From Gammaproteobacteria bacterium (GTDB lineage Bacteria > Pseudomonadota > Gammaproteobacteria > GCA-001735895): 64,000 nucleotides of DNA. Location: NCBI GenBank assembly GCA_050298595.1, contig JBNKUM010000014.1, forward strand, positions 1 through 64,000, read 5' to 3'. The notes below the pieces were generated by a model. It saw only the letters and a program-made list of their open reading frames with translations. It had not been told where the DNA came from and did not search any database. The position numbers were made by a program, and so were the translations under genes. Of this stretch, positions 716 to 64,000 are shown in pieces; position 1 is the first letter of the stretch; the number at the start of each line of letters is the position of its first letter.

Positions 716-3700
716 CTAGCTTTGCTGGATCCTCGCGTTAACATCATCTGCAGGCCTTATTCGGAACCAGGTGACATACAGCGCCGGCAGGAACAACAAT
801 GTGAGAACTGTACCAACCACAATGCCTCCCATCATGGCATAAGCCATAGGCCCCCAGAAGATCTCACTGGAGATGGGTATAAGTGCCAATGTGGCTGCTG
901 CAGCTGTCAACATAATCGGCCGCATACGATTTTCTGTCGCCTCGATCACGGCTTTCCACGGATCCATACCCTCTTTCCTCAGGGTCTCTATCTGAATAAT
1001 CAGGATAACCGAGTTTCGAATCAGGATACCAATCAAGGCCAGAATACCCAGGATTGCCACAAAGCCCATCGGTGAATTACTTGAAAGCAGTGCAATGACC
1101 ACACCGATCAAGGCTAGAGGTGCAACTGTAAACACCAGGAACAAGCGGTTAAAACTTTGCAGCTGGATCATTAAAATAGTCGCCATGATAAACAACATCA
1201 GCGGCGCTACCGCGGCAATTGGCCCCTGTGCTTTGGCACTTTCCTCGACTGCACCACCAGCAACCACTGAGTATCCCTGTGGTAATGTTTTATTAAAGTC
1301 CATGATTTGTGGTGCTAACTGGGCCACAACCGTTGCTGGCTGTAAATTACCTTCGACACTGGCCTTGACTGTAATGGTCGGTAAACGAGAACGACGCCAG
1401 ATGGTCGGTTGCTCCAGTTCATAATGAAACCTGACCACGGCTGAGAGCGGAACCGACTTGCCATTTGACACCGGCAACTGCAGATTCTGTAATGTTGCAA
1501 TAGAGCCGCGCTCTGAGTTTTGCGCACGGCTTACCACATCAACGAGATAGATATCATCACGTACCTGTGTAACCCGAGAACCTGCGACTATTCCGTTTAG
1601 TGCAGTTGCTATATCTTCTGAAGTCACGCCAAGCTGTCGAGCCTTATCCTGTAGCACATCAATCTTGACTACGCGCGCGGGCTCATTCCAGTCGAAGATG
1701 AGACCTGACAGATTTTCATTGCCACCAACAATACCTGCAAGCTGCTGAGCAAGTTTGCGCACAGTCTGCACATCCGGGCCGCTGACACGATACTGTACGG
1801 GCTTGCCCACAGGTGGGCCAATAGCCAACAGCTTGACGTATGCCTCTGTCCCTGGAAAGGTCTTCGTCAGGTATTCCTTAAACTGCCCGCGTAGTCGGTC
1901 TCGAGCTGCGATACTTTTTGTCACCATAACCGTTTGACCAAACGATACATCAGCTGGTTGAACATCGTAGGACAGCACAAATCGTGGTGCACCCTGTCCC
2001 ACATAGGATGACCAGTGGTCGATATCTTCATTGCCAACCAGCATGTCATTTTCAAACTGAGTGATCTGTCTATTGGTCTCTAAAATTGAAGAGTTCTGAG
2101 GCAGATACCAGTCAACAATCAGCTCTACGCGATCCGATGAAGGAAAGAACTGCTGCTGGACAAACCCCATACCACCCAGAGAGGCTGCAAATGCTATTAC
2201 TGTCAGAGTAATCGTCACCCAACGGAAACGCATACACCAATGCAGCAATGAAGAAAATATTGACGCCATAGCGCTCTTCTTTTCATGATGCTGCTGCATG
2301 CTTTTTGGCATCAGAGTGACACCGAGTAACGGCGTGAACAAAACAGCGACCACCCATGAAACAGTAAGTGAAACTGCGATGACCACAAACAGGGTGAAGG
2401 TAAACTCACCCGCCGCGCTACTATTGAGTCCGACGGGAATAAACCCGGCCACCGTAACCAGCGTCCCCGTCAGCATCGGAAATGCTGTCGAGGTGTAAAC
2501 ATAGGTAGCCGCTTTGCGAAGTGTGTCACCCACCTCTAATCGAGCTACCATCATTTCAACCGCAATCATGGCATCATCCACAAGCAGCCCCAGTGCAATA
2601 ATGAGTGCGCCCAGAGAAATTCGCTGTAATGAAATGCCGCTATACTCCATCACCAGAAAAGTTATCGCCAGAACCAGAGGGATAGAGATGGCCACCACCA
2701 GACCGGCACGCATGCCAAGACTGATAAAGCTGATTGCAAGAACAATGGCCACCGCTTCAAACAGGGCCTGAGTGAAACCAGATACCGCTTCTTCAACCAC
2801 AGCCGGTTGATCAGATACCTGCCCTATTTCGACACCAACCGGCATCTCGGCAATAATATTTTGCATCTGCTTATGCAGTGCGTCACCAAATTCCAGCAGG
2901 TTTGCGCCGGTCTTCATACCTATAGCCAGAGCGATAGCTTCCCTGCCATTGTATCGAAACAGCGAACTCGGTGGATCGGCATAGCCACGCCTGATAGTAG
3001 CGACATCCGTTAACGGAAAAAAGCGATCATTAACGCGCAGATTAATGCTGCGTAAGCTGTCCTCGGAAGTGAACTGGCCGCTAACGCGCAGTGCAATTCG
3101 CTCTGGCCCATTCTGGGAAAAGCCTGATGCTGTGACCGCATTTTGAGCCTTCAACGTGGATAGCACAGCCAGCTTGTCAATACCCAAAGCTGCAATCTTG
3201 CGTGTAGAGAATTCTAGGTAAATCACCTCTTCCTGAGCGCCAATGATATCTACCTTACCAACATTTGGCACATGCAATACCTGAGCGCGAGCCTCTTCAA
3301 CATAATCCCTTAATTGACGTTGACTTAGACCATCACTGGTGAAAGCGTAGATGTTTCCAAAAACATCTCCAAATCGATCATTAAAATAAGGGCCAATGAC
3401 ACCACTGGGAAAACTGCCTTTAATGTCAGCAATCATATTGCGTATCTTGACCCAGGTAGGCGACACATCCTTTGCTTTTGTAGTCGCTAACAGATTCACG
3501 AAAACTATAGTCTTACCGGCAGTCGTAATGCTTTTGGTATAATCCAGCGAGTCCAGCTCTTCGAGCTTCTTCTCTATGCGGTCTGTGACCTGTTTGGTCA
3601 CTTCTTCGGCAGAGGCACCAGGCCATTGAGCCTGGATCAGCATCGTTTTAATGGTGAAGTTAGGGTCTTCCTCACGCCCCAGGTTTAGATAGGACATGAA

Positions 3701-7092: not shown

Positions 7093-8226
7093 TCAAAGTA
7101 GTCCACGTACACTGGTCCAGTACATTTTGTTATAAGACGTTTTAAACCAGTGCATAGGTTGATTGGCAGGTTTCAGATCGGGCGGATTAAGGTAGTTAAA
7201 CATAGCGTACGTCGCCTTATCATGACCCGCTTCAATGAAACAGTACACTTTGCCGTCATATTCTGTTACAGGCGTACCTATCTTTATCATAGAAGCTATA
7301 TTTTCTGAAATCACCTCTGCTTCAAAATGAGCAGCAGAACCTGTTTTACTGACGGGAAGATTTGTAGTATCACCGACTACATAAACATTATCGTATCCCT
7401 CCATAGTCAATGAATGTCTATCAGTTGGAATCCAGCCATCCTGACCCAGACCATTTCTTTCAATGACACCCATACCATGATGCTCAGGAACTGATATCAG
7501 CAGATCGTATTTGTACTCAGATCCTTCCATACTTTTGACAACCTTATTTTCCACATCCACTTCTTCGACGTTAAATAAAGTCTCATACTCTACTCCCATT
7601 TCATCAAACTGAGGCCTGGCCCAGATTGCAACATTTTCAATGCTGTGGATTCTGTTAATAGGGTAGTGGTACTTAATATTGACCTTATCCCGTATTCCTC
7701 TTGCAGTAAAATACTCATGTAAAGCGAACGTTATTTCAACCGGTGCTATCGGGCATTTATGCGGCACACCGACGACAATACCAATATTGCCACCCTCAAA
7801 TTCACGCAGCTTTTTGAACATGCTAATAGCACCTTTCTCGGTGTAGCAGGTTTCAGAGCCCTCTTCCAGTCCCGGGATTTTTTTAGGCATTATGCGTGAA
7901 CCTGTGGCGATTACGAGAACATCATAGAAGTACTCCTTACCGCTTTGGGTTCTTACTTTTTTCTTATCAAGCTCAAACTTTTCGACGGGATCAACATGAA
8001 AATCGATGCTCGTTTCTAGTAAACTAGCCTGATCACGATACAGTTCATCAGGCATCATCTGGCCAAACGCAACATATAGTAATCCTGGTTGATACATATG
8101 CTGATCCGAAGCAGATAGCATGGTTATATGTACCTTGCGTTTTTTTATTTCTTTATCCAGACGTCTGGCTAAATTATTTGCAACAATGGTTCCACCGGTG
8201 CCTCCACCAACAACCAAGATTCTCAT
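7093..8226 (-). CDS. Sulfide:quinone oxidoreductase-like flavoprotein (short, type III-like)
   Basis: GGGTGG FAD motif, HMYQPGLLY, KCPIAP and YDGKVYCFIE carrying the two redox Cys positions, VYVVGD. Confidence 0.85.
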   Translation of the reverse strand: MRILVVGGGTGGTIVANNLARRLDKEIKKRKVHITMLSASDQHMYQPGLLYVAFGQMMPDELYRDQASLLETSIDFHVDPVEKFELDKKKVRTQSGKEYFYDVLVIATGSRIMPKKIPGLEEGSETCYTEKGAISMFKKLREFEGGNIGIVVGVPHKCPIAPVEITFALHEYFTARGIRDKVNIKYHYPINRIHSIENVAIWARPQFDEMGVEYETLFNVEEVDVENKVVKSMEGSEYKYDLLISVPEHHGMGVIERNGLGQDGWIPTDRHSLTMEGYDNVYVVGDTTNLPVSKTGSAAHFEAEVISENIASMIKIGTPVTEYDGKVYCFIEAGHDKATYAMFNYLNPPDLKPANQPMHWFKTSYNKMYWTSVRGLL

Positions 8227-52959: not shown

Positions 52960-55854
52960 TTATTTCAGCGCTGAAATTAATTTTGTGGTTACAGGGATAT
53001 TAGCGGAAGGCCTTCCGATATAATAACCTTGGGCATAATCCACACCAATTTCTGCTAATAGCTTGAGGGTATTTTCATCTTCAACAAATTCTGCCACTGT
53101 CTCCTTTCCTAAAGCAGTTGCTATCTGCGTTAATGCTCTGACAAAGACCTGATCCATCTTGTTTGTGAGTAGTTGTTTGATGAATGAACCATCGATCTTT
53201 ACAATATCCACCGGTAGCTCTCTCAAGTAATAAAAGGATGAGAAGCCGATACCAAAATCATCCAGTGCAAACCGGCACCCGAGTTTCTGGAGCTCGGTCA
53301 TCAAGTTAAGCGCTGCATTCATATCTGCCAGTGCTGCAGTTTCAGTCAGTTCAAATACCAGATGCTCTGGGTTGATACCACTATTGTTGAGCAGTTGAGT
53401 CAATTGCGGGAGTAGCTTTGGATCATCAATGACACGACCAGATAGATTGATTGAGAGCGTGATATCCTGCTCGCTACCTCTCAGACTTGACAATTTATCA
53501 ATCGAGGCACCCAGTACATATTGGTTAATCTTGTGAATCAAGCCTGTTCGCTCAGCTACAGGTATGAACTCTCCAGGCATAGCAATGGAGCCGTCCCGCT
53601 CAATCATTCTGATGAGTACCTCATAATGTGAGATGATGCCGTCGCTAATCTTCAAAATAGGCTGAAAAAACAGGGTGAAACGCTCCTCTGTCAAGGCCCG
53701 TTCGATCTTATTTTTCCAGGTAACCTGGGCATTCAACTGTTCACGAACCATCTCCTTGTTTGAGAAGAGATGCCAATTGTCTCTGCCCAACTCTTTCGCC
53801 TGATACATGGCCAGGTCGGCATTTGAAAGCAGTTCTTCGGATGAAGAACCATGTTTCGGGTAGGTAACTATGCCGATGCTAGCTGTGACGTGATGGCGGT
53901 GGCCTTTTGATGGAATGGAAATCTTCTTAAGTTCATTAAGTAGCTTGTCTGCAAAAAGAATGGTGCCCGGTATGTCTGCCTCCGGTACCACAATCGCGAA
54001 TTCATCACCACCCAGGCGTGCAATAAGGTCGTTGGAGCGGGTGATTTCACGAATTTTTCGGGCAACGGCCTGTAAAAATGCATCACCTGTTTGATGACCA
54101 CTTGAATCGTTAATGTACTTAAACTGGTCGAGATCAAAAAACAGTAGCGCGAAGGAACGGCGATAACGCTCGGCAAACGTAATGATCTTATCTAACTCAG
54201 TCTGAAAGCTACGACGGTTATTCAGTTCTGTCAGTGGATCATGATTTGCTAACCATGCAAGCCGCTGCTGTGCGACTTCACGGTCAGTAATATCAAGACC
54301 GATCGAAAGTATATCAGGAGTATCGGGAGTCTGTTTGCTGGTTAATGGTGAGTGTACCCAGGAGAAGGTTTTTTTCTGCCCATCGCATGACAGGGTGCTG
54401 GCATCGTGTTGATGGGAAGCTATCTTGCCAGCCTGCAAACCATCCATGATATGCTTCATCTGTTTGAGCTGATCAACATTCATGAACAGGTCACTGAAGC
54501 GGCGACTGCCAGGCTGGTAATCGGTTACGCCGATAAACTGACAGCCCTCAGTATTAATGGTGAGGATAGCACCATTGCTGTCCTGAGTGAGGATAATAAC
54601 CTGTGCGCTGTGCATGATAGTGTTGAGGAAATCCCTTTCTACGGCTAACTCTTCACTACGTTTAATGAGACTATCGGTATTTTTTTTTATCTCCTCATGA
54701 AGATTCTCTAGTGTATGTGTCAGTTGAATGGCAGATTCGCTGGCGATATCAATCTCATCCTGATACCAGTCGTGACGTTGGAAGGAGAGTTTGCTTCTGA
54801 CTTTCTGAAAGGCGTTTTTTGCCAGTAATGGCAAACTGTTTGATATCAGCAGCAGTCTTTTCATCGGATGCCACAGGAACAGGGCTAAAAGTAGTTCAGA
54901 AACAATAAATCCAATAATGCCTATCACAACAGATTGCGTGGTTGCCTGCTGAATTTGTTGGACCACAGCTGTAATATTACTGACAATAACAAAGTCCGCT
55001 GATGTATCACTAGTTGCCGGAATAAGACTTATAGCAAAGTGCTCACCGTCATAGATGGCTTTGTATTCACTATCAGCTATAGCCATGAGCGATATTTGCT
55101 CAGAAGTTAAATGTAATATTGGAATCACTTTTTCAATATTACTCGATGCAGAGATATATCTTTGCCACTTTGGAAGAAGGCGGATGCTACTCATCAGGTT
55201 CTCCTGTGAATTCGGACGACTGATTATTGCGACATCTGTCTTTGTTAATTCATTAAATTCTATGATGACATCAGCCAGGGAGCGGCCTACCAGTATCACT
55301 CCGGCATCTTTACCTTTGTCTAGCACAGGCACGGCGACATACTGAACACAAGCTGCATCACAGTGCAGGCTAGACATCGGTATCTGAAGACGATTAACCG
55401 ACCTGACCAGATCATCGAAAATACCCTCAGTCTCTCTGGTCTGCCAGTTAAACAGAAGCTCGTTGTGGTTACTGAAATAAGCAGCCTGTTCAAGCCCCCA
55501 GTCAATATCCAGTGTCTTTTCACTATGTTGAAAAAAATTATTCAGCTTCTTGCCCAGGCTAAGGCTTTGCTTAGTCATGGCTGCTTCAGATAATGCAGGA
55601 ATCATTCGGGCTATCTGCTCCAAACGATATAAACTTGTTTCCAGAAGGGATGTGACCTGCCTGTTTTGTTGCTCGCGTATTTGTTCCTGATAGGTGTTAA
55701 ACAGGCTGCGTTGTTGTAGATAGCCCAGGCCTGCCAAACCCGCGTTGATGATAAATAGTACCAGGCTGAACAATAGAACGACCTTCCATTTCAGACTGAG
55801 GAAGAATAGACCTTTGTTAGAATATGCAGATTCGGAACTATTTTTCTTATCCAA
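52960..55854 (-). CDS. Membrane sensor with periplasmic Cache-like, PAS, GGDEF and EAL domains
   Basis: Two TM helices; HDPLTELNNRR, DLDQFK, RLGGDEF, YEVLIRM, ELTET, ALDDFG, QGYYIGRP; TTG start. Confidence 0.92.
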   Translation of the reverse strand: MDKKNSSESAYSNKGLFFLSLKWKVVLLFSLVLFIINAGLAGLGYLQQRSLFNTYQEQIREQQNRQVTSLLETSLYRLEQIARMIPALSEAAMTKQSLSLGKKLNNFFQHSEKTLDIDWGLEQAAYFSNHNELLFNWQTRETEGIFDDLVRSVNRLQIPMSSLHCDAACVQYVAVPVLDKGKDAGVILVGRSLADVIIEFNELTKTDVAIISRPNSQENLMSSIRLLPKWQRYISASSNIEKVIPILHLTSEQISLMAIADSEYKAIYDGEHFAISLIPATSDTSADFVIVSNITAVVQQIQQATTQSVVIGIIGFIVSELLLALFLWHPMKRLLLISNSLPLLAKNAFQKVRSKLSFQRHDWYQDEIDIASESAIQLTHTLENLHEEIKKNTDSLIKRSEELAVERDFLNTIMHSAQVIILTQDSNGAILTINTEGCQFIGVTDYQPGSRRFSDLFMNVDQLKQMKHIMDGLQAGKIASHQHDASTLSCDGQKKTFSWVHSPLTSKQTPDTPDILSIGLDITDREVAQQRLAWLANHDPLTELNNRRSFQTELDKIITFAERYRRSFALLFFDLDQFKYINDSSGHQTGDAFLQAVARKIREITRSNDLIARLGGDEFAIVVPEADIPGTILFADKLLNELKKISIPSKGHRHHVTASIGIVTYPKHGSSSEELLSNADLAMYQAKELGRDNWHLFSNKEMVREQLNAQVTWKNKIERALTEERFTLFFQPILKISDGIISHYEVLIRMIERDGSIAMPGEFIPVAERTGLIHKINQYVLGASIDKLSSLRGSEQDITLSINLSGRVIDDPKLLPQLTQLLNNSGINPEHLVFELTETAALADMNAALNLMTELQKLGCRFALDDFGIGFSSFYYLRELPVDIVKIDGSFIKQLLTNKMDQVFVRALTQIATALGKETVAEFVEDENTLKLLAEIGVDYAQGYYIGRPSANIPVTTKLISALK

Positions 55855-55864
55855 GGCATTTATC

Positions 55865-57073
55865 TCAGAAACTATAGGAAACTAGTAGCGAAAACAGGTT
55901 CCAGTCACGCTGTTTCGCGCCAGGCAATGGGTTTTCCAGGTTGGATAGAAATATAGTACCTTCCACCTGACTGAATTCGGTACGTAACATTAACCGCTCG
56001 GTGGGCTCCCAGAGCAGCCCTACAGTCCATAATTTGCTGAAGAAGTTGTGGGGAGGCAGGCCGAGTTTGGCGCTGGTTTTGCTACCATCTGTGTCATGTT
56101 TATCGTAATGGCTCTCCTCATAACGAGCGAACATTTCCCAGTCTGGCAGCATCCGATAACTTCCCTGTAAGTAGTAACCATTAACGGTTGTGTCTCCCGC
56201 ATCCATAAAACCGCCAAAACCTGTGTAGTCTATGGGTTCCTCCATATATTCCATGGTCAGGCTCAGGGGGCCATCATTGTATTGGCTTGAGACTACCCAG
56301 TAATCCATATCGAAACCACCTGGGGGGAACGCATTCATCTCACCATTCATTGACAGAGAAGCGTTACTCAGGGCCAATCTGATGCGACCTCCATCCCACT
56401 CATAGAGTAAGCGGCCGCCAGTTGTGAGGCCATCCTGCTCCAATTTTGGACTGGAGTCAGGGATAAGGTAGCTCTTTTCAACATTTTCATCGATCGGTGT
56501 TTTTCCGGCAAATAGTTGCAGATTGAAAAGGTGGCTGCCGAACTGGCTCCCTGCGTAAAATTGTCCTCCATCATTGGAGAGGACCATGTTTCTCACCCGA
56601 TCCCAGTAAATCGACTGAGGCATAAAGATTCCTGGCCGGGTAGCTGCTACATCCCGCGTGTCATTATACAGACCGAGAGGGTTTTTATTGCGACCGACAA
56701 TAAAACCGATATAGCTAGTCTCATCCATCTGGTGGGTATAATCGAATTGAGCAAAATCGACATCTAGAGACCCATCATACATCTCACCCGCTGTACGGGA
56801 GAGTAGTTGAGCGGATGCCATCATAGTTGGTGAAATACGATAGGAGGTATTGATGCCAATTTCAGTGAAATCAAAACTGCCATCCTTGCTATCACCAAAG
56901 AAGCTGTTTTCAGTTGTTTTGACATAACCCTGGGTTAAAAAGCCATGGACTTGCAAAGCTCGATTAAAATCTGAAAGTTCTGCGGCCAGCAATCCCTTTG
57001 CTGGCAGACAGCATAGTGCTAGCAGGCAAAGTGCCCAACGACTATTCAACTGAAATGGTGCGCATACGCTCAT
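55865..57073 (-). CDS. Outer-membrane beta-barrel (porin-like) protein
   Basis: Signal-like WALCLLALCCL; QVHGFLTQGY, GRNKNPLGLYNDTRDV; ends SYSF; start is 57073 or TTG at 57049. Confidence 0.7.
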   Translation of the reverse strand: MSVCAPFQLNSRWALCLLALCCLPAKGLLAAELSDFNRALQVHGFLTQGYVKTTENSFFGDSKDGSFDFTEIGINTSYRISPTMMASAQLLSRTAGEMYDGSLDVDFAQFDYTHQMDETSYIGFIVGRNKNPLGLYNDTRDVAATRPGIFMPQSIYWDRVRNMVLSNDGGQFYAGSQFGSHLFNLQLFAGKTPIDENVEKSYLIPDSSPKLEQDGLTTGGRLLYEWDGGRIRLALSNASLSMNGEMNAFPPGGFDMDYWVVSSQYNDGPLSLTMEYMEEPIDYTGFGGFMDAGDTTVNGYYLQGSYRMLPDWEMFARYEESHYDKHDTDGSKTSAKLGLPPHNFFSKLWTVGLLWEPTERLMLRTEFSQVEGTIFLSNLENPLPGAKQRDWNLFSLLVSYSF

Positions 57074-57461
57074 TATTATTTCCTTCAGAAAGATAACCGA
57101 TAGCCCCAGGTGTTTGTGCCACCATCTCGCGCATCTCCTCCTCAGATTCAACCTTAGTAGGTGCCTGCCCCATACCGGAATAGATCTGTCGATTCCAGAC
57201 TCGACGTAACTGGTGTGGAAATAAGCCGAGCAACTGTTTACTGAAATCTGTGTGCAAGCTGGTTTTATCCGGCATAACAAAGACATGGATTGGCTTGCCA
57301 TCGGGCCAGAGTGTTTTCCGCATGCTGAAAATTGAGCGTAAGGTGTTGCGTGACATGGTCTCCTGGGAGACATCACGGTTGATGACCAGATCAATAGATT
57401 GTGCTGTTTCACAAAAACTTAGCAGCAATCCAATTGCAAGTGCATGATAAGCAAATTTCAT
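57042..57461 (-). CDS. Small periplasmic substrate-binding-like protein (PBP2/phosphate-binding-like)
   Basis: Signal peptide; LRSIFSMRKTLWPDG, WNRQIYSG.GQAP, VAQTPGAIGYL. Confidence 0.75.
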   Translation of the reverse strand: MKFAYHALAIGLLLSFCETAQSIDLVINRDVSQETMSRNTLRSIFSMRKTLWPDGKPIHVFVMPDKTSLHTDFSKQLLGLFPHQLRRVWNRQIYSGMGQAPTKVESEEEMREMVAQTPGAIGYLSEGNNNERMRTISVE

Positions 57462-57889
57462 TCTTGTGGGAGAGATTCCTTATATTCCCTGATTATAGCA
57501 ACTATAGGAGCCCTGTCCCCATATTACAAGCAGCGAATTGCTACCTAACAACCCCTTCATTAAAAATGAGGGTAGACCAGTGTATCAACTGGAGAAATTT
57601 GCATTAATGGGGGGGCAGAGGGATTAATTTCCACTGATTACGTCAAAAGTTCCGCTGCCTCAGTGGTGAGCCGCTGAGTGGTTGATAATAGTGACAATAG
57701 CTAATCACAGAGCTTATCATGTCTCGCAAGCTCATTCAGTTTCAACCAGGCTTATCCTTAACCGAATTTACCTGACTTTACGGCAGTCAGGAGCAATGCC
57801 AATCTACCCTACAAGCTCGCACGCTGGCCTAAGGGGTTCGACTGTCAACGTCGTGCTTTACAGTTCTGGCTGAGATGGTTGATCAACAC

Positions 57890-58252
57890 CGAGCTATAGT
57901 AACCGGGTCAGGGCCGCTATGCACGAAGACAACCAGTTGCTTTTCAAGCTCAGCGATAGCGGAATTGGCAAACAACCCAAGCATATAGTGTACCAGTTCA
58001 AACCCTATGAGCAGGGAAACAGCTCCACCACACGCAAGCTTCGGTGGTACCGACCTCGGTTTTGTCATCAGCAAGAGGCTGGTGGACCTGATGAATGGCA
58101 ACATCTCTGTGCAGAGCAAGCTCGAAGAGGCATCCACCTTCGAAGTACGAATTCCACTGCTTAACAGGGGCATATCGACAGGAACTACAGGCCTGAACCG
58201 ACCCTCTTCAAACAGCTGGAAAAACGGTGCCTGGTTAGCCTCTCACTGCTGA
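57890..58252 (+). pseudogene. Frameshifted histidine-kinase HATPase fragment
   Basis: FKLSDSGIG...FKPYEQGNSSTTRK, then in another frame FGGTDLGFVISKRLVDLMNGNISVQS...STF (G1, F and G2 boxes). Confidence 0.75.
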
Positions 58253-58267
58253 TGGCCGAGGACAACT

Positions 58268-58960
58268 GTAAGCGTCCAGTAAACCCCACCTAAAGATTTC
58301 CCAAATCAGTTGATAGAGTTCGCCTTTTAACAGAAGGAACGAGTATGACCCAAAGAACCCACCGAAGCCAGGCCGAGTGGCAAGCCTTGATCCAGCAGCA
58401 AGTACAAAGCGGACAGACTTCAGCGGCATTTTGCCGTGAACAAGGCATATTGGCAAAAAGCTTCTTCTGCTGGCGAGGCCTGTTTGAAAAGTCTACTGAG
58501 GAAGCCTTAGTGCGCGTGGAACCGCTGCCCACTGCCAAAACCTCAATAACTGATCGCATGGTGTTGGAGTATGGGGGCCAGCCGTCTGGTGCTTGAAGGC
58601 TGTGATCCTTTATGGCTGGCGCAACTGCTCAAGGCGTTGTCATGAAGATGTTCGTCGAACCTGGTGCCGTGTTCCTACACCGCGAAGCGGTGGACTTCCG
58701 TAAATCTATTAATGGTCTGGTAGCTATAGTGCAACAGGAGATGAATCGTTCACCCTTCGCCGATGCACTGTTCGTATTCTGCAACCGGGCAAGGGACAAG
58801 CTCAAGATTGTCTACTGGGACCAAACCGGATTTTGTGCGACCACCACGGATGGTGGAAGTTAGGCAACGCAGGAGCAGTTGCCAAGTATAAACGCCTGGA
58901 ACAGGAACGCTTCAAATGGCCGGCACGCTACCCAGATGCCAACATGCCATTGAGCAGCGT
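58268..58960 (+). mobile_element. Degenerate IS66-family element (left end, tnpA, broken tnpB; tnpC absent)
   Basis: Left end GTAAGCGTCC at 58268; tnpA EWQALIQQQ..SG...AAFCR with an extra G in the G5 run at 58573-58577; tnpB VDFRKSINGL...FVFCNRARDKLKIVYWD. Confidence 0.85.
58837..58886 (+). repeat. ~50-bp double-hairpin insertion disrupting IS66 tnpB
   Basis: CCACC-ACGGAT-GGTGG and GGCAAC-GCAGGAGCA-GTTGCC lie between tnpB GFC and the out-of-frame YKRLEQERFKWP. Confidence 0.75.
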
Positions 58961-59182
58961 ATTCTGGTAAAATAGCACCATGTAATTGGCTATGGAACCA
59001 TTACTAAACGGCATCAACCGAATCATAAAAACTCAATTATTTGAGTTTAAGGACACGTTTGTCTTGAAAGTAGGGAGGCGTCCATATACGTCCAGAAACA
59101 ACTTAAATAACTGTTAATCAGCATAACTTCGTTTGCGCTATTGACTGAAAGCGGCTAATTGACCCCATTTATTTTTATCCTT

Positions 59183-59401
59183 TTATTGATTTTCAATCTC
59201 TTCCTGTACATCCTTAGGTAGCCACTTCCAAACAACCTGATAATACAACTCCTTGATTTCAGGGTAATTGATCTCTGCAAATTCCGAAACACGATTGGCA
59301 TCACCATATTTTGAAGGCTGATGAAATAGACTATTCAATTTCTCTAAAAGAGAAAAGATACGTATAGCTTCATCCACATCAACATCAATTTTACGATTCA
59401 T
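59183..59401 (-). CDS. Probable immunity protein (72 aa)
   Basis: Starts 3 nt after the toxin stop with an AGGTGA RBS; small and acidic; call rests on position. Confidence 0.65.
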   Translation of the reverse strand: MNRKIDVDVDEAIRIFSLLEKLNSLFHQPSKYGDANRVSEFAEINYPEIKELYYQVVWKWLPKDVQEEIENQ

Positions 59402-59404
59402 ATT

Positions 59405-60337
59405 TCACCTATTATTACTAAATGATGCATTTCTATCTTTTAAATCCACATCTCCTTTCAACGTGTATTCTGTCGCCCCGGTTTGTGGGTTCTTGACTAC
59501 AGCAAACTCACCTTCATATGCATCAAATTCTACATAATTATTACCCCGACCACGACTAATACCAAGCTCTTCTTCAACATCTCTTGGACTTTTGGGTTTA
59601 CCCTTAGCCTTTACAGTAAAAACTCGATCTTGATCACTCGCTTTTATCACCTCCGTATCCTTAATCCCCTCAATTCCTTTCTTGTTAGTAAAGTGACGAA
59701 GTCTAGTAGCTTTTAGTGGCTTTGCCAACGGAATCTCAGATAGCACCCCAATTATACCCAGAGCATATTCTCCATTTCTAATATCGTTTACTCCATCAGC
59801 AACTCCCATTCCTGGAGCCATTTCAACGCTAGCTTCGGCAAAGCCAAATGCAAAATCGGTATAGAATTTTCCACTCGAGAAATAGTCAGATGGAAATGCA
59901 TATCCAAAATACTCCCCATTCGGATCAGTATATTTATAAGGGTTATCTCCCGCATAAGCATACCGATTAAACGTAATCGGGTTTTTACTCTTAAACCCAA
60001 CCGGATCCACCCCCATAAACCGTCCAATCTCCGGATCATAATACCGAGCCTGCATATAAGTCAGCCCGGTCTCCTCATCATGCACATGCCCAGTATAGCC
60101 ACGCACATTATCCTTTCCCACATCCTGCTTGAGTAACTTATCTCCATAAGGGCTGTACTCTTCTCGCCACACCACCTCACCCAATTCATTGGTGGTGGCA
60201 ACTGGACTGCCGAGCAAGTCGTAGTGATAAAACGTGATTTTATTAGCGGCGTAGGCCTGATTATTGGCTATGGCCATTAGCACCAGGAATAAACCCAACA
60301 CCAGGTACTTGATTAATTTGGAAGCGCTAGTTTTCAT
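59405..60337 (-). CDS. Signal-peptide-bearing RHS-core protein with C-terminal toxin domain (ART HYD1-like)
   Basis: MKTSASKLIKYLVLGLFLVLMAIANNQAYA, then FYHYDLLGSP...GYTGHVHD..TGLTYMQARYYDPEIGRFMGVDP...NRYAYAGDNPYKYTDPNG; tip LRHFTNKKGIEGI...VF...YVEFD. Confidence 0.88.
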   Translation of the reverse strand: MKTSASKLIKYLVLGLFLVLMAIANNQAYAANKITFYHYDLLGSPVATTNELGEVVWREEYSPYGDKLLKQDVGKDNVRGYTGHVHDEETGLTYMQARYYDPEIGRFMGVDPVGFKSKNPITFNRYAYAGDNPYKYTDPNGEYFGYAFPSDYFSSGKFYTDFAFGFAEASVEMAPGMGVADGVNDIRNGEYALGIIGVLSEIPLAKPLKATRLRHFTNKKGIEGIKDTEVIKASDQDRVFTVKAKGKPKSPRDVEEELGISRGRGNNYVEFDAYEGEFAVVKNPQTGATEYTLKGDVDLKDRNASFSNNR

Positions 60338-60465
60338 GTTCTTTCCAGAAGCTCCTTGAATTTTTTTCATGGTAATAGCAATTAGCATCAGTTGATTCTA
60401 ATTAGATCATTTATGAGCACGTAATCAATCACCGAATATGACCCTTGACCTCCTATTTTTAATTG

Positions 60466-63400
60466 TTAATTCACTTTGGTTACTGACGTAAATGTTTCAT
60501 CGCTATAATTACTACACCCTGAACTATTACAGGCGCGTACGCGGAAAACATGATAACCGAAAGGATTTGTTATAGAGGCTGTCGTATAACTCAATAACCC
60601 CCCTTCATAAACAGTAACCCACGGAGATCGATAGGAGGAGCCAATTTGACTGGCCCTTTGTAACTGATAGGTTGCCCCAGTGCCTCCACTGCCCCAGGTA
60701 AGTATAATCCGTCCACCCTCTATTATGCGACTTGGTGCAATTAAATTGGGTTTATCTGGAGGTAACAATACTGTTATTGTTTTTGTAACGCTATAAGCCC
60801 CACATCCACTGATGTTGCAGGCTCTAACCCGATAGTAATAAGTCGCACTACCTCGGCCTGTCAAAAGCTTACTTCTGATATTACTGCTATGAACTGTCAC
60901 CCATGAACTATTATTTTTCTTTTCAACTAGCTCATAGCTGGTTGCTGTAGATACTGCATTCCAACTTACTGAATAAGTACCATCAGTATTAGAAGCAGGT
61001 ATGGTCAATCCACCCGGAACTACTGGACGGAATAAAACAACCGTGGTTTTAGTAACACTAAAAGCACTTGCACCACTACCATTGCTAGCCCTAACACGAT
61101 AACGGTAAGTTCCATTACCTCTACCGGTCAAAACTTTACTGGTCGTAGTGCCACTATGGACCATAACCCAGGCACCATTGTTTTTCTGCTCCTGTAATTC
61201 ATAAAGGTTTGCGGCAGTTACTGCACTCCAGCTCACTGTATAAGTGCCATCAATATCATTCGCTGGTGAACTAAGCCCTCCAGGCGTGGTGGGCGGTAAT
61301 GCGACGGCCGTAACCTTCTGAGCACTGAACGCACTACACCCACTAGTATTACAGGCCTTGGCCTGATAGGAATAGGTACCACTGCCCTTACCACTGCGTG
61401 CGATACTCGTGGCACTCGTATTCTGTATAACTGTCCAGGCTCCACTGTTGACTTTTTCCTCGACCTGATAACGGGCCGAACCCTTCACTGAAGTCCAGCT
61501 CACCGTGTAGACCCCATCGATATCCGAGGCCGGAGCACTGAGTGTTGGTGTAGCTGGCGGTAATAGTACAAGAGTTGATTTCCGGGTACTGAACGCACTA
61601 CACCCGCTGCTATTACAGGCCTTGACCTGATAGTAATAGGTACCGCTGCCCTTACCACTGCGTGCGATACTCGTGGCACTCGTATTCTGTATAACTGTCC
61701 AGGCTCCACTGTTGAGTTTTTCCTCGAGCTGATAACGAGTCGAACCAGTCACTGCATTCCAGCTCACCGTATAGGCTCCATCGATATCCGAGGTCGGTGT
61801 GCTGAGTGTTGGTGTAGCCGGCGGTAATAGTACCAGAGTTGATTTCTGGGTACTGAGCGCACTACAGCCCATATGATTACAACCCTGAACTCGATAGTAC
61901 CAGTTCCCAGAGGCATGGCCAGATACCGCTTTACTTCTAGCACTGCCGTTATAGATGGTAGCCCAGGCCCCACTGTCTTTCTTTTCCTGTAACTGATAAC
62001 TGGTGGCAGTTAAGGCACTGCTCCAACTGATACTATAGGCACCATCGGTATCGGAAACGGGGGTGGTTAAACCGCCGGGTACGGGTGGCTTGTCATACAT
62101 CAGTGGATTCCGCCCCTGCGCAACTTCAGTACCGTCATTGATCAGGTCTCCATCGGTGTCTGCTTTAGTGGGGTTAGTACCTCGGGTTTGTTCCGCCAGA
62201 TTGTTGAGCCCATCACTATCCGTATCTTCGTTGGCATCACTGATGCTATCACCATCCGTATCCGGGTTAGTGGCGCTGAGTCCATACTGAATTTCAAAAT
62301 GATCATTCAGGCCATCACCATCGGTATCCCATTTGGTAGGACTGGTGCCCCAGAACGCGATTTCATCACCATCCTTGATTCCATCTCCATCACTATCTGG
62401 GTTGTTGGGTTTAGTACCCCAGAGGATTTCATCACGGTCATTCAGGCCATCCTTGTCGCTGTCCGGTACTATGGTGGATACCACCGAGGGTCCATGCTCC
62501 AGCTTGGCGACCAGCTTTCCATTCAGGTTGACGTACTCGATATCTTTCTTATTGGTCTGATCGTAGCGATAGAGAAGTTCACCTGCCAGGTTGTAGATAT
62601 AGTAGATAGTTTTATCAGGGGCTTTCACCTTGACCCTTTTCTTGTTGCCGTCGTAGCTGTAATTAATACCCTGGTTAGTCACGCTGAGTAGTTGACTGGC
62701 ATCATCGTAGCTGAAGCTATCGCTTCCGTTACCTTTTACGTTGCCATAGTTATCGTAGCTAAACGTTTTGCTCACTCCGCCAGTCACACTGTCCAGACGA
62801 TTGCTGCTGTTGTAGTGATAGCTCAGGCTCTTGCTGCCGAGGGTCATGCTGCTGATGTCATGGTCATCGTCATAACTGATGACTCCATTACCCCAACGTC
62901 CATTGGCGCTGGTGAGTCGGCCCAGGCCGTCGTAGCCCATGCTACGGTTGTTGTTACTCAGCGCAGCATCGGTGATCCCTGTGACGTTTTCTTCATCGTC
63001 GTAGGTATAAGTCAGATCGACCAGATTCAGGATGTTATCGGTGGTATGTATGTTCTCGGGAACGAACTTGTTGTTGAGTGTCGCTGTATAAAAATAACCA
63101 TTGGCATAGGTCATTTCTTTGACGACGTCATTGGCGTAGTAATTAATGTCAGTCACATAGTCGCTATTGCTGTCGTAGATGGCTCGGGTGCGTGAGAGTG
63201 CATCTTTGGTATATTCAATATAACGACCATTAGGTTGTTCGATATTGGGCAGGCGTAGTCGGTCAAGGTTGCCAAGGCTGTCGTAGACGTATTCGGTGGT
63301 GAAGTTCAGGCCGTCGATGCTGAGTGTTTCTTTTTCGATCTGGTTAACTGCATCGAAGTCATAGTCCCAGTCTGTGGTGTTGGCACCGGTAATCAGGTGA

Positions 63401-63999
63401 TCCAGATTATGGCCCTGATAGGTATAGGTGACATCTAGCGTACTACCAGGATAATCGATGTGTTCAATTAAGTTGTTATTCCAGTAGTGGTAATAGGTGA
63501 TACCAGAAGCCCCTACCTGCTTACTGGAGAGGTTGCCACGCACATCATAGCCATAGGTCGTTTTTCCCGTTTCAGGTTCGGTTTTGGTTTCTACCAGCAA
63601 TGTACCTTCTTGATATTTCGTGTCATATTTATAAGTGAAACTGCGGGTGATATTGTTCTGCTTGATCGTTTTGATCTGGCCATGCTTGCCTCGCGTCATG
63701 CGGGTTTCTATATAGGCCGTGCTGTCCTTTTGCTGCTGGATTTCTATCAGGTCTTTGTCATTCGGATCGCTATAGGACCGATAGTTGCGTATGGTTTCAT
63801 AGCCAAGTGTATCGGTAACAACTTCTCCATGCTGGACAGAGGATTTGCCGCTGCGAGTTGCATTACAGGCTGTACCATAACAGATGGTGGTGCTGCTAGC
63901 ATCACCGGGTTCGGTGATGCTGGTGATGCGATTGAGAGCATCATACTCGAAGATTTTCTTAGCCGTCTCGGCACTGTCATAGCTGGGGATATATTCGTG
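60466..63999 (-). CDS. YD-repeat (Rhs shell) protein with Ca-binding DxDxDG repeats and six FN3 domains; 5' end outside window
   Basis: Frame open to the window edge (FEYDALNRITSIT...); repeats YDVRGNL, YDSLGNL, YDGLGRL, YDNYGNV; six D(S/T)DxD motifs; six FN3 units with WxxV...YxYRVxACN. Confidence 0.9.
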   Translation of the reverse strand, partial: HEYIPSYDSAETAKKIFEYDALNRITSITEPGDASSTTICYGTACNATRSGKSSVQHGEVVTDTLGYETIRNYRSYSDPNDKDLIEIQQQKDSTAYIETRMTRGKHGQIKTIKQNNITRSFTYKYDTKYQEGTLLVETKTEPETGKTTYGYDVRGNLSSKQVGASGITYYHYWNNNLIEHIDYPGSTLDVTYTYQGHNLDHLITGANTTDWDYDFDAVNQIEKETLSIDGLNFTTEYVYDSLGNLDRLRLPNIEQPNGRYIEYTKDALSRTRAIYDSNSDYVTDINYYANDVVKEMTYANGYFYTATLNNKFVPENIHTTDNILNLVDLTYTYDDEENVTGITDAALSNNNRSMGYDGLGRLTSANGRWGNGVISYDDDHDISSMTLGSKSLSYHYNSSNRLDSVTGGVSKTFSYDNYGNVKGNGSDSFSYDDASQLLSVTNQGINYSYDGNKKRVKVKAPDKTIYYIYNLAGELLYRYDQTNKKDIEYVNLNGKLVAKLEHGPSVVSTIVPDSDKDGLNDRDEILWGTKPNNPDSDGDGIKDGDEIAFWGTSPTKWDTDGDGLNDHFEIQYGLSATNPDTDGDSISDANEDTDSDGLNNLAEQTRGTNPTKADTDGDLINDGTEVAQGRNPLMYDKPPVPGGLTTPVSDTDGAYSISWSSALTATSYQLQEKKDSGAWATIYNGSARSKAVSGHASGNWYYRVQGCNHMGCSALSTQKSTLVLLPPATPTLSTPTSDIDGAYTVSWNAVTGSTRYQLEEKLNSGAWTVIQNTSATSIARSGKGSGTYYYQVKACNSSGCSAFSTRKSTLVLLPPATPTLSAPASDIDGVYTVSWTSVKGSARYQVEEKVNSGAWTVIQNTSATSIARSGKGSGTYSYQAKACNTSGCSAFSAQKVTAVALPPTTPGGLSSPANDIDGTYTVSWSAVTAANLYELQEQKNNGAWVMVHSGTTTSKVLTGRGNGTYRYRVRASNGSGASAFSVTKTTVVLFRPVVPGGLTIPASNTDGTYSVSWNAVSTATSYELVEKKNNSSWVTVHSSNIRSKLLTGRGSATYYYRVRACNISGCGAYSVTKTITVLLPPDKPNLIAPSRIIEGGRIILTWGSGGTGATYQLQRASQIGSSYRSPWVTVYEGGLLSYTTASITNPFGYHVFRVRACNSSGCSNYSDETFTSVTKVN
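61324..61870. repeat. 264-bp tandem duplication encoding adjacent FN3 domains
   Basis: ACTGA(A/G)CGCACTACA recurs at 61324, 61588 and 61852; long identical blocks such as CCCTTACCACTGCGTGCGATACTCGTGGCACTCGTATTCTGTATAACTGTCCAGGCTCCACTGTTGA. Confidence 0.9.
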
Positions 64000-64000
64000 G

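What the first reader, a model, noticed from the sequence alone, without database searches (positions are those of the whole stretch)
59183..63999. Split Rhs system: adhesin-tipped YD shell plus separately secreted core-toxin cartridge
Seen: the YD repeats end at EYVNLNGKLVAKLE, where a canonical Rhs would continue into the core. Instead come six DxDxD Ca-binding-type repeats, six FN3 domains and a stop. The next gene has its own signal peptide (ending AYA) and starts at the missing core (ITFYHYDLLGSP...DPNG), followed by a toxin and a probable immunity gene. Known: classical Rhs proteins are single chains whose YD shell encloses the toxin and whose core protease cleaves at DPxG. Inference: shell and core assemble after separate export, the FN3/Ca stalk tethers or targets the particle, and cartridges are exchangeable without recombination into the shell gene. 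Separately encoded cores occur in other proteobacteria, but I know no functional description of this architecture.
Basis: partly seen in the sequence, partly recalled or inferred. Interest (0 to 1): 0.8.

Follow-up and report, generated by a model that had tools for sequence, protein, structure and literature searches.

The report
Two-piece secreted Rhs toxin system
This locus encodes a bacterial toxin container (Rhs) as two separately exported proteins, a shell with a sticky stalk and a small plug-plus-toxin cartridge; the same layout recurs in many proteobacteria and I found no paper that names it.

Summary
The window ends inside a 1955-aa gene (contig C14 60466-66333, minus strand). It encodes a signal peptide, a YD-repeat Rhs cocoon ending at residue 1279, six DxDxD (TSP3) repeats and six FN3-like domains, with no Rhs core. 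The next gene (59405-60388) encodes a signal peptide, a complete Rhs core with conserved protease motifs, and a Tox-ART-HYD1 toxin. A 72-aa ORF follows 4 nt later.

This is not an orphan remnant:
- 108 of 120 listed short relatives carry a signal-peptide-like N-terminus directly before the core.
- In 33 of 41 informative genome loci a core-less shell frame ends within 500 nt of the cartridge.
- Up to 5-6 cartridges occur in arrays.
- Fused single-chain relatives show that nothing is missing at the split.
- Stalk domains sit at the split, on either chain.
- A complex model scores 0.91 (best control 0.00), possibly from likeness to solved single-chain Rhs.
- T2SS genes adjoin three loci.

The published Xanthomonas perforans Bcn-A bacteriocin (T2SS-dependent, needs ORFA and ORF4) probably belongs here. 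I could not check that by sequence.

Best reading: a split, Sec/T2SS-exported Rhs bacteriocin with exchangeable cartridges. It is a new variant of a known kind, and no experiment was done here.

The parts
62497..64000 (-). YD-repeat cocoon (shell) part of the 1955-aa shell gene. The gene continues beyond the window to contig C14:66333, where it starts with a signal-peptide-like leader (residues 1-22). The shell ends at residue 1279 (...LVAKLE).
   Evidence: RHS_repeat E 2.1e-18. An AF2 model of residues 23-1222 has pLDDT 85.2 and pTM 0.82. The best PDB match is the T6SS Rhs cocoon 7q97, E 1.9e-35. Boundary.
62122..62469 (-). Six TSP3-type DxDxD calcium-binding-type repeats (residues about 1289-1404), directly after the last shell strand.
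   Evidence: Pfam TSP3_bac E 1.5e-12, 5 stretches. Six DxDxD[GSL] motifs at residues 1291, 1313, 1336, 1358, 1370 and 1392.
60469..62088 (-). Six FN3-like beta-sandwich units (residues 1416-1955), five of them with a CxxxxC motif. The stop codon is at 60466-60468.
   Evidence: Translation. ChitinaseA_N E 2.9e-10 and GH85_C E 5.5e-7. Weak PDB sequence matches to an Fn3-like protein (3mpc, E 2.4e-4) and an F2-pyocin tail fibre (E 1.4e-4). A 264-nt tandem repeat at 61324-61976.
60248..60337 (-). Sec-type signal peptide of the cartridge protein (residues 18-47 of the 327-aa ORF), with the likely start at Met18 and an ...AYA cleavage motif. The ORF itself opens at 60388.
   Evidence: The database gene call P0005 starts at Met18. 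The equivalent leader occurs in 108 of 120 listed relatives. No SignalP was available; I used my own crude rule.
59915..60247 (-). Complete Rhs repeat-associated core (residues 48-158), beginning ...ITFYHYDLLGSP and ending DPNG. It carries the two conserved Asp-Pro motifs (D128-P129, D155-P156).
   Evidence: TIGR03696 E 2.4e-23, positions 1-75 of 76, and PF03527 E 1e-7. D128, P129 and D155 are invariant in 46 aligned relatives. The segment aligns to the C-terminal ends of solved Rhs chains, e.g. Tse5 1015-1120 of 1121, E 2.9e-13.
59408..59914 (-). 169-aa toxin region with a Tox-ART-HYD1 (predicted ADP-ribosyltransferase) domain at residues 230-318 (59435-59701). The stop codon is at 59405-59407.
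   Evidence: Pfam PF15633 E 2.3e-22, positions 1-97 of 97. The cargo length is typical of the family (median 165 aa).
59183..59401 (-). 72-aa ORF starting 4 nt after the toxin stop: candidate immunity protein.
   Evidence: Position only. No Pfam or NCBIfam family. Only two relatives, at 72% and 67% identity, in the 5.8-billion-protein search. No convincing match in 400 same-class genomes.

Best explanation
The locus encodes a split Rhs polymorphic toxin.

- Chain 1 (1955 aa) is exported by Sec. It folds into the YD-repeat cocoon but stops just before the core 'plug'. It carries a Ca-binding-type TSP3 linker and six FN3-like domains at that open end.
- Chain 2 (about 310 aa) is exported separately by its own Sec leader. 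Its core domain adds on to the last strand of the shell, closes the cocoon, and brings in the roughly 19-kDa ADP-ribosyltransferase cargo. The conserved aspartyl-protease motifs of the core then cut the cargo free.
- The complex is probably released through a type II secretion system as a soluble or surface-binding bacteriocin. The stalk at the plug end would be the part that binds surfaces or target cells.
- The 72-aa protein would protect the producer.
- Because each cartridge has its own start and leader, one shell can in principle be loaded with alternative cartridges without recombination.

Shown here: the gene anatomy, the conservation of the pair and of the leaders, and the complementarity at the split.

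Inferred: assembly, encapsulation, the T2SS route, the stalk function and immunity.
For: 1. The two parts are complementary.
- The shell has no core.
- The cartridge starts exactly where fused relatives continue after a 4-10 residue linker.
- Its core is complete and the catalytic Asp-Pro motifs are invariant in 46 aligned relatives.

2. Both chains carry leaders.
- The shell has one.
- 108 of 120 listed short relatives pass a crude signal-peptide rule with the core following within 22 residues.

3. Synteny across the 67 genome loci.
- In 33, a core-less shell frame ends within 500 nt of the first cartridge frame, often overlapping it.
- 8 other informative loci lack this: 6 have no shell, 1 has fragments only, and 1 has a shell 3 kb away.
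- 6 are fused and 20 cannot be judged.
- No third gene is conserved across the loci.

4. The stalk marks the junction.
- It follows the shell C-terminus here and in many other loci.
- In L061 (Big_7 x4) and L065 (N_BRCA1_IG x6) it sits instead between the leader and the core of the cartridge chain.

5. Complex model.
- Shell residues 420-1296 with core residues 48-165 gave an ipSAE of 0.91 in three runs. The best of 3 controls scored 0.00.
- The mark was reached by 116 of 157 solved complexes and 2 of 215 mismatched pairs.
- The runs agree in at least 90% of contacts, and the partner pLDDT is at least 86.
- Core residues 51-54 pair with shell residues 1275-1278.

6. The shell models as a cocoon: pLDDT 85.2, and the top PDB matches are Rhs, TcB-TcC and teneurin shells.

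7. Cartridge arrays, each cartridge with its own leader.
- L033 has 5; L038 and L075 have 4 each.
- In L020, 3 of 4 pass the leader rule; in L035, 4 of 5 (the fifth is cut off at the locus edge).
- In L121, four cartridges share near-identical leader-plus-core halves and have different toxins.

9. Export route.
- gspL/M/C/D genes lie directly beside the pair in L014, L043 and L074.
- The window's own genome has two GspD secretins elsewhere.
- In X. perforans Bcn-A, ORFA (RHS family, 1398 aa) and ORF4 (290 aa, with a signal peptide and similarity to WapA, RhsA and Tc) are both required. Activity is in the supernatant above 100 kDa and is lost in an xpsD mutant. ORF5, directly after ORF4, gives immunity (PMC7259588, passages).
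Against: - No experiment or expression data bear on this locus. No RNA holder was listed.
- The complex score may reflect the model's memory of solved single-chain Rhs cocoons, as the tool itself warns. Only a truncated shell and the core without cargo were modelled.
- The signal peptides were judged by my own hydrophobicity rule, not by SignalP.
- 6 of 41 informative loci have a leader-bearing cartridge with no shell within 4-10 kb upstream. L119 is a solitary cartridge. Cartridges may therefore also act alone or in trans.
- How a cargo that leaves the Sec channel after the core gets inside a shell is unexplained.
- No T2SS gene lies next to this locus.
- The immunity role of the 72-aa ORF rests on position alone.
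- I could not verify by sequence that Bcn-A belongs to this family. Bcn-A also has two extra small genes (ORF2, ORF3) that this locus lacks.
Confidence: 0.68

Rival explanations
1. The cartridge is a self-sufficient secreted toxin. Its Rhs core serves only as a self-cleaving pro-domain, and the neighbouring shell is a separate adhesin without cargo. Adjacency would then reflect common descent or recombination, not assembly.
For: - Leader-bearing cartridges occur with no shell within 4-10 kb in 6 of 41 informative loci, and L119 is solitary.
- Arrays hold many more cartridges than shells.
- Shells carry adhesin-like domains.
Against: - A shell lacking exactly the core, next to a protein starting exactly at the core, in 33 loci is hard to explain without assembly.
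- The stalk sits at the junction on either chain.
- The complex model scores 0.91 against 0.00.
- In every solved structure matched, the core segment is part of the shell chain.
- In Bcn-A both ORFA and ORF4 are needed (PMC7259588, passages).
Confidence: 0.15
2. The pair assembles as proposed, but it is not released by a T2SS. It might stay in the periplasm or on the cell surface, or leave by vesicles or lysis. The stalk would then tether it to the producer for contact-dependent inhibition, as with WapA.
For: - No T2SS gene lies beside this locus.
- Only 3 of 67 loci have gspL/M/C/D next door, and 2 more have a secretin-like gene.
- TSP3 repeats match surface proteins such as CglD and MtsD weakly, below their cut-offs.
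Against: - The shell has no C-terminal anchor or sorting signal visible in its sequence.
- T2SS adjacency occurs in three unrelated loci.
- Bcn-A activity is in the supernatant and depends on xpsD (PMC7259588, passages).
Confidence: 0.12
3. The arrangement is a decayed Rhs gene. An ancestral single-chain gene was interrupted, and the downstream piece is an unexpressed orphan remnant.
For: - An IS66 fragment lies 320 nt downstream of the 72-aa ORF.
- The module is patchy within the genus: 1 of 13 other genomes has a stand-alone relative.
- This genome also holds true orphan cassettes without leaders, on contig C43.
Against: - Both frames are intact.
- The leader is conserved in 108 of 120 relatives.
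- The pair recurs across many genera of gamma- and betaproteobacteria.
- The catalytic residues are invariant.
Confidence: 0.04

Closest known systems
Canonical single-chain Rhs / WapA-type polymorphic toxins (T6SS Rhs such as RhsA 7q97, Tse5 and Tse15; Sec-exported WapA; bacterial teneurin-like proteins, PMC13018210)
   Same: - YD-repeat cocoon.
- Rhs core with DPxG protease motifs.
- Variable C-terminal toxin followed by a small gene.
- Close fused relatives also have Sec-type leaders.
   Different: - The shell and the core-plus-toxin are two genes, each with its own leader.
- No PAAR, VgrG or DUF6531 family was detected in the shell.
- Accessory stalk domains sit at the shell/core junction.
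Tc (ABC) toxin BC sub-complex: TcB plus TcC, e.g. YenB with YenC1, YenC2 or YenC3 (PMC11067744, abstract seen; PDB 4igl, 4o9x)
   Same: - One cocoon is built from two polypeptides, with the core and cargo on the second chain.
- One shell partner accepts alternative cargo chains, including one from a distant 'orphan' locus (abstract).
- The shell model matches TcdB2-TccC3 (4o9x, E 1.4e-29).
   Different: - In solved Tc complexes the C chain is much larger: the core lies at residues 599-689 of the 690-residue YenC2 chain. From my recall, TcC also supplies about half of the shell. Here chain 2 supplies only the roughly 110-aa core.
- No SpvB, TcB-mid or beta-propeller families are found in the shell.
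- Both chains have Sec leaders. That Tc subunits assemble in the cytoplasm is my recall.
- No TcA was found, but that search had no working control.
Orphan rhs-CT/rhsI modules downstream of full-length rhs genes (PMC4436062, passages; Koskiniemi 2014 as cited there)
   Same: - Core-fragment-plus-toxin-plus-immunity cassettes lie in arrays downstream of a large rhs gene.
   Different: - Orphan modules are described as lacking N-terminal trafficking modules and needing recombination into the main gene (PMC4436062, passage).
- These cartridges carry a complete core and their own start and signal peptide.
- The upstream gene has no core or toxin to be displaced.
- True leaderless orphans exist elsewhere in the same genome (C43).
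Bcn-A bacteriocin locus of Xanthomonas perforans 91-118 (PMC7259588, passages read)
   Same: By the paper's description:
- A large secreted RHS-family protein (ORFA, 1398 aa).
- A 290-aa protein with a signal peptide and similarity to WapA, RhsA and Tc (ORF4), followed by the immunity gene ORF5.
- ORFA and ORF4 are both required.
- Activity is in the supernatant above 100 kDa and depends on the T2SS secretin XpsD.

A relative from the same GTDB family as a Luteimonas genome (L122) has the same shell plus FN3-like tail plus cartridge layout. By eye, its toxin resembles the two helices printed for ORF4.
   Different: - Two small genes (ORF2, which is required, and ORF3) lie between ORFA and ORF4. 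Here the gap is 77-128 nt.
- The authors read ORFA as the toxin and ORF4 as an accessory, not as a split Rhs.
- I could not obtain the sequences, so homology is not tested here.

Membership tests
Rhs / YD-repeat polymorphic toxin | YD-repeat beta-cocoon shell | tested here: met
   RHS_repeat E 2.1e-18. AF2 model pLDDT 85.2. Foldseek top hits are Rhs cocoons, E 1.9e-35.
Rhs / YD-repeat polymorphic toxin | Rhs repeat-associated core with the paired DPxG aspartyl-protease motifs | tested here: met
   TIGR03696 E 2.4e-23, positions 1-75 of 76. D128-P129 and D155-P156 are conserved. The core lies on the second polypeptide.
Rhs / YD-repeat polymorphic toxin | Shell, core and toxin in one polypeptide | tested here: not met
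   A stop at 60466-60468, a 77-128 nt gap, and a new start with a leader.
Rhs / YD-repeat polymorphic toxin | Variable C-terminal toxin directly after the core | tested here: met
   Tox-ART-HYD1 E 2.3e-22. Relatives carry other or unannotated C-termini.
Rhs / YD-repeat polymorphic toxin | Cognate immunity gene immediately downstream | tested here: inconclusive
   A 72-aa ORF starts 4 nt after the toxin stop. It has no family and only two relatives. No binding or protection test was done.
T6SS-delivered Rhs effector | PAAR, VgrG or prePAAR linkage and no Sec signal | tested here: not met
   No such family in the shell or in the scanned neighbours. Both chains have Sec-type leaders. A T6SS exists elsewhere in the genome.
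Tc toxin BC sub-complex | Cocoon made of two separate chains | tested here: inconclusive
   The complex model supports binding (0.91 against a best control of 0.00; 116 of 157 solved and 2 of 215 mismatched pairs reach the mark). It may pass from likeness to solved structures. No experiment.
Tc toxin BC sub-complex | TcB-type N-terminal SpvB and mid domains with a beta-propeller, and a TcC chain that contributes half of the shell | tested here: not met
   No SpvB or TcdB-mid families in the shell. Chain 2 holds only about 110 aa of core before the toxin.
Tc toxin BC sub-complex | TcA translocator partner in the genome | tested here: inconclusive
   VRP1 (PF03538) was not found in the own genome, but the control rang in no genome.
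Orphan rhs-CT/rhsI module | No own trafficking module or start; depends on recombination into a full-length rhs gene | tested here: not met
   An own leader is conserved in 108 of 120 relatives, the core is complete, and the upstream gene has no core to recombine with.
Bcn-A-type bacteriocin locus (X. perforans) | Sequence homology of the shell to ORFA and of the cartridge to ORF4 | not testable with these tools
There is only a by-eye resemblance of the L108/L122 toxin to the helices printed in the paper.
Bcn-A-type bacteriocin locus (X. perforans) | Required small genes ORF2 and ORF3 between the shell and the cartridge | tested here: not met
   Only 77-128 nt separate the two genes here. No third conserved gene was found across 67 loci.

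The most novel reading that the evidence does not exclude
A widespread class of Rhs weapons works as a cartridge system assembled outside the cytoplasm.
- One Sec-exported, core-less shell is loaded in the periplasm with any of several independently expressed 'plug plus toxin' cartridges, including ones encoded elsewhere in the genome.
- The loaded particle leaves through a T2SS as a diffusible bacteriocin.
- Its receptor-binding stalk is attached at the plug end.
- Toxin diversification would then need no recombination into the main gene, and the known Bcn-A bacteriocin would be the first characterised example.
Probability: 0.4. Interest if true: 0.85.

Novelty: new variant of a known kind. 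Interest (0 to 1): 0.72.

Why it matters
Current accounts treat Rhs toxins as single chains that fold around their own cargo, and treat downstream cassettes as silent spares that need recombination (PMC4436062, passages). Three things would follow from a two-chain form with its own export signal on the cargo chain.

- A cocoon could be closed and loaded after export.
- One shell could fire several toxins at once.
- A large set of genes annotated 'RHS repeat-associated core domain-containing protein' of about 300 aa would be active toxins, not remnants. There were 427 clusters in one length-limited search, and 223 of 401 genomes of one family had a match.

It would also give a mechanistic reading of T2SS-dependent Rhs bacteriocins such as Bcn-A. 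The fixed insertion point for targeting domains offers a simple handle for studying how Rhs cargo is loaded.

Tried and rejected
- **Expression.** The look-up of sequencing runs listed 6 DNA holders in 3 studies and no RNA holder, so read laying was not used and expression is untested.
- **Promoter and terminator scan** of 58900-60700 gave counts at the shuffle level and nothing on the minus strand between the genes.
- **Rfam** on the 13.2-kb locus gave no match.
- **Immunity ORF.** There are no convincing relatives in 400 same-class genomes; the best foreign E-values are about 0.004. The large protein search found only two relatives.
- **Outgroup for the shell tree.** The genome's other Rhs-core proteins (contigs C12, C109) gave no phmmer hit to the shell at E 1e-3 (script errors). 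The tree is therefore unrooted.
- **Locating Bcn-A.** I found more split loci (L120, L121, L122) and a solitary cartridge (L119), but nothing I can equate with Bcn-A.
- **TcA search.** The control rang nowhere, so the search is uninformative.
- **Literature.**
  - The phrases 'split Rhs', 'bipartite Rhs' and 'two-partner Rhs' had no occurrence in the library.
  - Combinations of Rhs with signal peptide, core domain, T2SS, Sec-dependent, orphan and shell returned no paper describing this architecture apart from the Bcn-A paper.
  - These searches cover open-access papers and bioRxiv only. I read no supplements.
- **Rejected readings.**
  - Frameshift or read-through joining the two genes: the second gene has its own leader.
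  - Lipoprotein leader: there is no Cys at the cleavage site.

Full report
**1. What is in the window**

Three minus-strand frames fill 59183-63999:
- an open-ended frame at 60466..63999;
- a 327-aa ORF at 59405..60388;
- a 72-aa ORF at 59183..59401.

The window is contig C14:1-64000 of a 5.49-Mb, 119-contig genome. Reading on in the contig, the large gene starts at C14:66333 and encodes 1955 aa.

*The shell protein*
- It begins with a short charged stretch, a hydrophobic run and ...TFA, which looks like a Sec signal peptide.
- It is a YD-repeat protein (RHS_repeat E 2.1e-18) up to ...LVAKLE at residue 1279.
- Six DxDxD motifs follow at residues 1291-1392 (TSP3_bac E 1.5e-12).
- Six FN3-like units then run from residue 1416 to the stop (ChitinaseA_N E 2.9e-10, GH85_C E 5.5e-7).
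- Neither Pfam nor NCBIfam finds an Rhs core, a PAAR domain or a DUF6531 domain in it.

*The cartridge protein*
- It has a leader ending ...AYA. The likely start is Met18, as in the database gene call P0005.
- A complete Rhs core follows immediately (TIGR03696 E 2.4e-23, positions 1-75 of 76; PF03527 E 1e-7), ending in DPNG at residues 155-158.
- A Tox-ART-HYD1 domain follows (E 2.3e-22).
- The 72-aa ORF starts 4 nt after the toxin's stop codon.

**2. The two genes add up to one Rhs**

Fused single-chain relatives (L073, L068, L041) pass from the strand equivalent to ...LVAKLE through a 4-10 residue linker into the strand equivalent to ...ITFYHYDLLGSP. Nothing is missing and nothing is duplicated: the break lies in one loop.

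In every solved structure matched by sequence, cartridge residues of about 28-146 align to the C-terminal end of the shell chain itself. An example is Tse5 1015-1120 of 1121, E 2.9e-13.

An AF2 model of shell residues 23-1222 is confident (pLDDT 85.2, pTM 0.82). Its best PDB matches are T6SS Rhs cocoons (7q97, E 1.9e-35), TcB-TcC and teneurins.

**3. It is a family, not an accident**

*Short relatives.* A search restricted to proteins of 179-573 aa found 427 relatives of the leader-plus-core part at E <= 0.001 among 576 candidates. Of the 120 listed, 108 pass a crude signal-peptide rule: a basic residue, then at least 10 uncharged hydrophobic residues, with the core within 22 residues. The median length before the core is 31 residues. 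The other 12 break down as follows:
- 8 have N-termini of only 7-24 residues and look like truncated gene calls;
- 3 have a hydrophobic N-terminus plus 60-80 extra residues;
- 1 has no leader.

*Conserved residues.* The core's Asp-Pro motifs are invariant in 46 aligned members.

*Cargo.* C-termini are diverse and mostly unannotated. This fits a cavity-limited cargo. PMC13018210 (passage) makes the same argument for teneurin-like proteins.

**4. The pair is syntenic**

A scan of one genome per species gave 633 confirmed stretches. The best 80 formed 67 loci.

| Category | Loci |
|---|---|
| Core-less shell frame ends within 500 nt of the first cartridge frame, often overlapping | 33 |
| Shell 3 kb upstream | 1 |
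| Only N-terminal shell fragments | 1 |
| At least 4 kb upstream DNA and no shell | 6 |
| Fused single-chain genes | 6 |
| Cannot be judged (18 with too little upstream DNA; 2 with a giant upstream frame reaching the locus edge) | 20 |

So 33 of 41 informative non-fused loci show the pair. The hosts named in the record titles include Pseudomonas, Shewanella, Colwellia, Ferrimonas, Pleionea, Zooshikella, Hahella, Microbulbifer, Luteimonas, Stenotrophomonas, Pokkaliibacter, Comamonas and Thiobacillus.

Shell proteins of both split and fused relatives start with Sec-type leaders and share an N-terminal motif. An all-against-all comparison found no third gene conserved across the loci.

In a tree of 23 shells, the four fused forms nest among the split ones. 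Three changes of state are needed, and starred branches force at least two. Branches are long and the tree is unrooted, so I conclude only that splitting or fusion happened more than once.

**5. The stalk marks the junction**

Tails vary. Many shells end bare (e.g. L014, L028, L043, L074), while others carry TSP3/FN3-like or other repeats.

In L061 and L065 the shell ends bare and the repeats sit between the leader and the core of the cartridge chain. These are Big_7 x4 (E 6.2e-77) and N_BRCA1_IG x6 (E 9.5e-47).

Accessory domains are thus attached at the same topological point from either side. This is what one expects if the two chains meet there and the loop faces outward.

**6. Binding model**

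I modelled shell residues 420-1296 with core residues 48-165, each with its own alignment.
- The ipSAE was 0.91 in all three runs, and the best of three controls scored 0.00.
- The mark was reached by 116 of 157 solved complexes and 2 of 215 mismatched pairs.
- The runs agree in at least 90% of contacts, and the partner pLDDT is at least 86.
- The tightest contacts pair core residues 51-54 with shell residues 1275-1278, i.e. strand addition continuing the spiral.

As the tool warns, halves of a split protein can pass from likeness to solved single-chain cocoons. The result therefore shows compatibility, not binding.

**7. Cartridges**

Thirteen loci hold two or more stand-alone core frames: L064 has 6; L033 and L035 have 5; L020, L038 and L075 have 4.
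- In L033, L038, L075 and L022 every cartridge passes the leader rule. In L035, 4 of 5 pass; the fifth is cut off at the locus edge.
- In L121, four cartridges share near-identical leader-plus-core halves and then diverge.
- By contrast, the extra cassettes of L061 and those on this genome's contig C43 have no leader and look like classical orphans.
- Solitary leader-bearing cartridges also exist (L119).

Reviews describe orphan modules as lacking trafficking modules (PMC4436062, passage). These cartridges differ in exactly that respect. A precedent for one shell partner accepting several cargo chains, one of them from an 'orphan' locus, is YenB with YenC1-3 (PMC11067744, abstract).

**8. Export route**
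- Nothing beside this locus encodes a secretion system. Downstream lie an IS66 TnpB fragment, a weak porin-like gene and a GGDEF-EAL gene.
- The genome has two GspD secretins over the cut-off and one T6SS sheath gene elsewhere.
- In L014 and L043 (Pseudomonas) and L074 (Pokkaliibacter), gspL/M/C/D genes lie directly beside the pair. In L074 they sit between two pairs. L053 and L054 have a secretin-like gene within 10 kb.
- PMC7259588 (passages) describes the X. perforans Bcn-A locus:
  - its genes are ORFA (RHS family, 1398 aa), ORF2, ORF3, ORF4 (290 aa, with a signal peptide and similarity to WapA, RhsA and Tc) and ORF5 (immunity);
  - ORFA, ORF2 and ORF4 are required;
  - activity is in the supernatant above 100 kDa and is lost in an xpsD mutant.

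  This reads like a member of the family, but I could not fetch its sequence. The link rests on the description and on a by-eye resemblance of one relative's toxin (L108/L122).

**9. Distribution**
- Within the window's genus, only 1 of 13 other genomes has a stand-alone relative (G401, 42% identity).
- The toxin and immunity genes are AT-rich (36-43% GC against about 50% nearby), and an IS fragment adjoins them. The module looks horizontally acquired.
- In the family of G418, 223 of 401 genomes match the profile at E <= 1e-20. This tally includes three unpublished genomes (G502, G680, G615).
- Of the first 50 listed matches, 39 lie in frames of at most 566 aa and 11 in frames of at least 866 aa. 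The profile includes the leader, so short forms rank higher.

**10. Verdict**

Best reading (0.68): a split, Sec-exported and probably T2SS-released Rhs bacteriocin. Its plug-plus-toxin is a separately exported, exchangeable cartridge, and its stalk is mounted at the plug end.

Open points:
- assembly and encapsulation, in particular how the cargo gets inside;
- the function of the stalk;
- the role of the 72-aa ORF;
- expression.

I found no paper naming this architecture. Those searches cover open-access text only, and Bcn-A is a probable unrecognised example. I therefore rate it a new variant of a known kind.

Noticed in passing
window 57412-59183 (IS66 fragment at 58612-58863, + strand): The 1.8 kb downstream of the 72-aa ORF has no long ORF but holds a fragment of an IS66 Orf2 (TnpB_IS66, E 4.1e-23). 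GC drops to 36-43% over the toxin and immunity genes, against about 50% on either side. This suggests the module was acquired horizontally.
   Followed up: partly
own genome, contig C43 (3514 nt), frames 1130-2080 and 2556-3476, minus strand: Two classical orphan-type Rhs core-plus-toxin cassettes without any leader, each followed by a small or mid-sized ORF, on a short contig. They contrast with the leader-bearing cartridge in the window.
   Followed up: partly
own genome, contig C12 around 7277-7516 (2837-aa open frame) and contig C109 2-3142: Two further large proteins carry an Rhs core. Neither gave a phmmer hit to the window's shell at E 1e-3. They are presumably the T6SS-type Rhs of this genome, which has a TssC gene on C26.
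   Followed up: no
L074 11459-15889 (also L043 1063-5505 and L014 12390-16072): A compact gspL/M/C/D-like T2SS gene set (Secretin E 1.9e-51, T2SSC, T2SSM_b). It lies between two split Rhs modules in Pokkaliibacter and next to the module in two Pseudomonas genomes.
   Followed up: partly
L119 970-1839 (G681:C1), minus strand: A solitary leader-bearing core-plus-toxin cartridge with a small downstream ORF and no shell within 7 kb. By eye, it sits beside two genes that look like PilT/PilU-type ATPases; no family scan was run.
   Followed up: no
window 61324-61976: A 264-nt tandem repeat, 2.1-2.5 copies at 82-90% identity, within the FN3-like units. It points to recent duplication in the stalk.
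   Followed up: no
window 52960-57412, minus strand: Downstream neighbours are a dCache_3-GGDEF-EAL signalling protein (964 aa) and a 515-aa protein with a sub-threshold porin match. No link to the Rhs module is evident.
   Followed up: no
L064 (Shewanella MAG contig, 12145 nt): Six successive core-bearing frames of 304-516 aa. Four of them have an FN3-like stretch before the core, and none passed my leader rule. This may be a third arrangement, or the starts may be miscalled.
   Followed up: no
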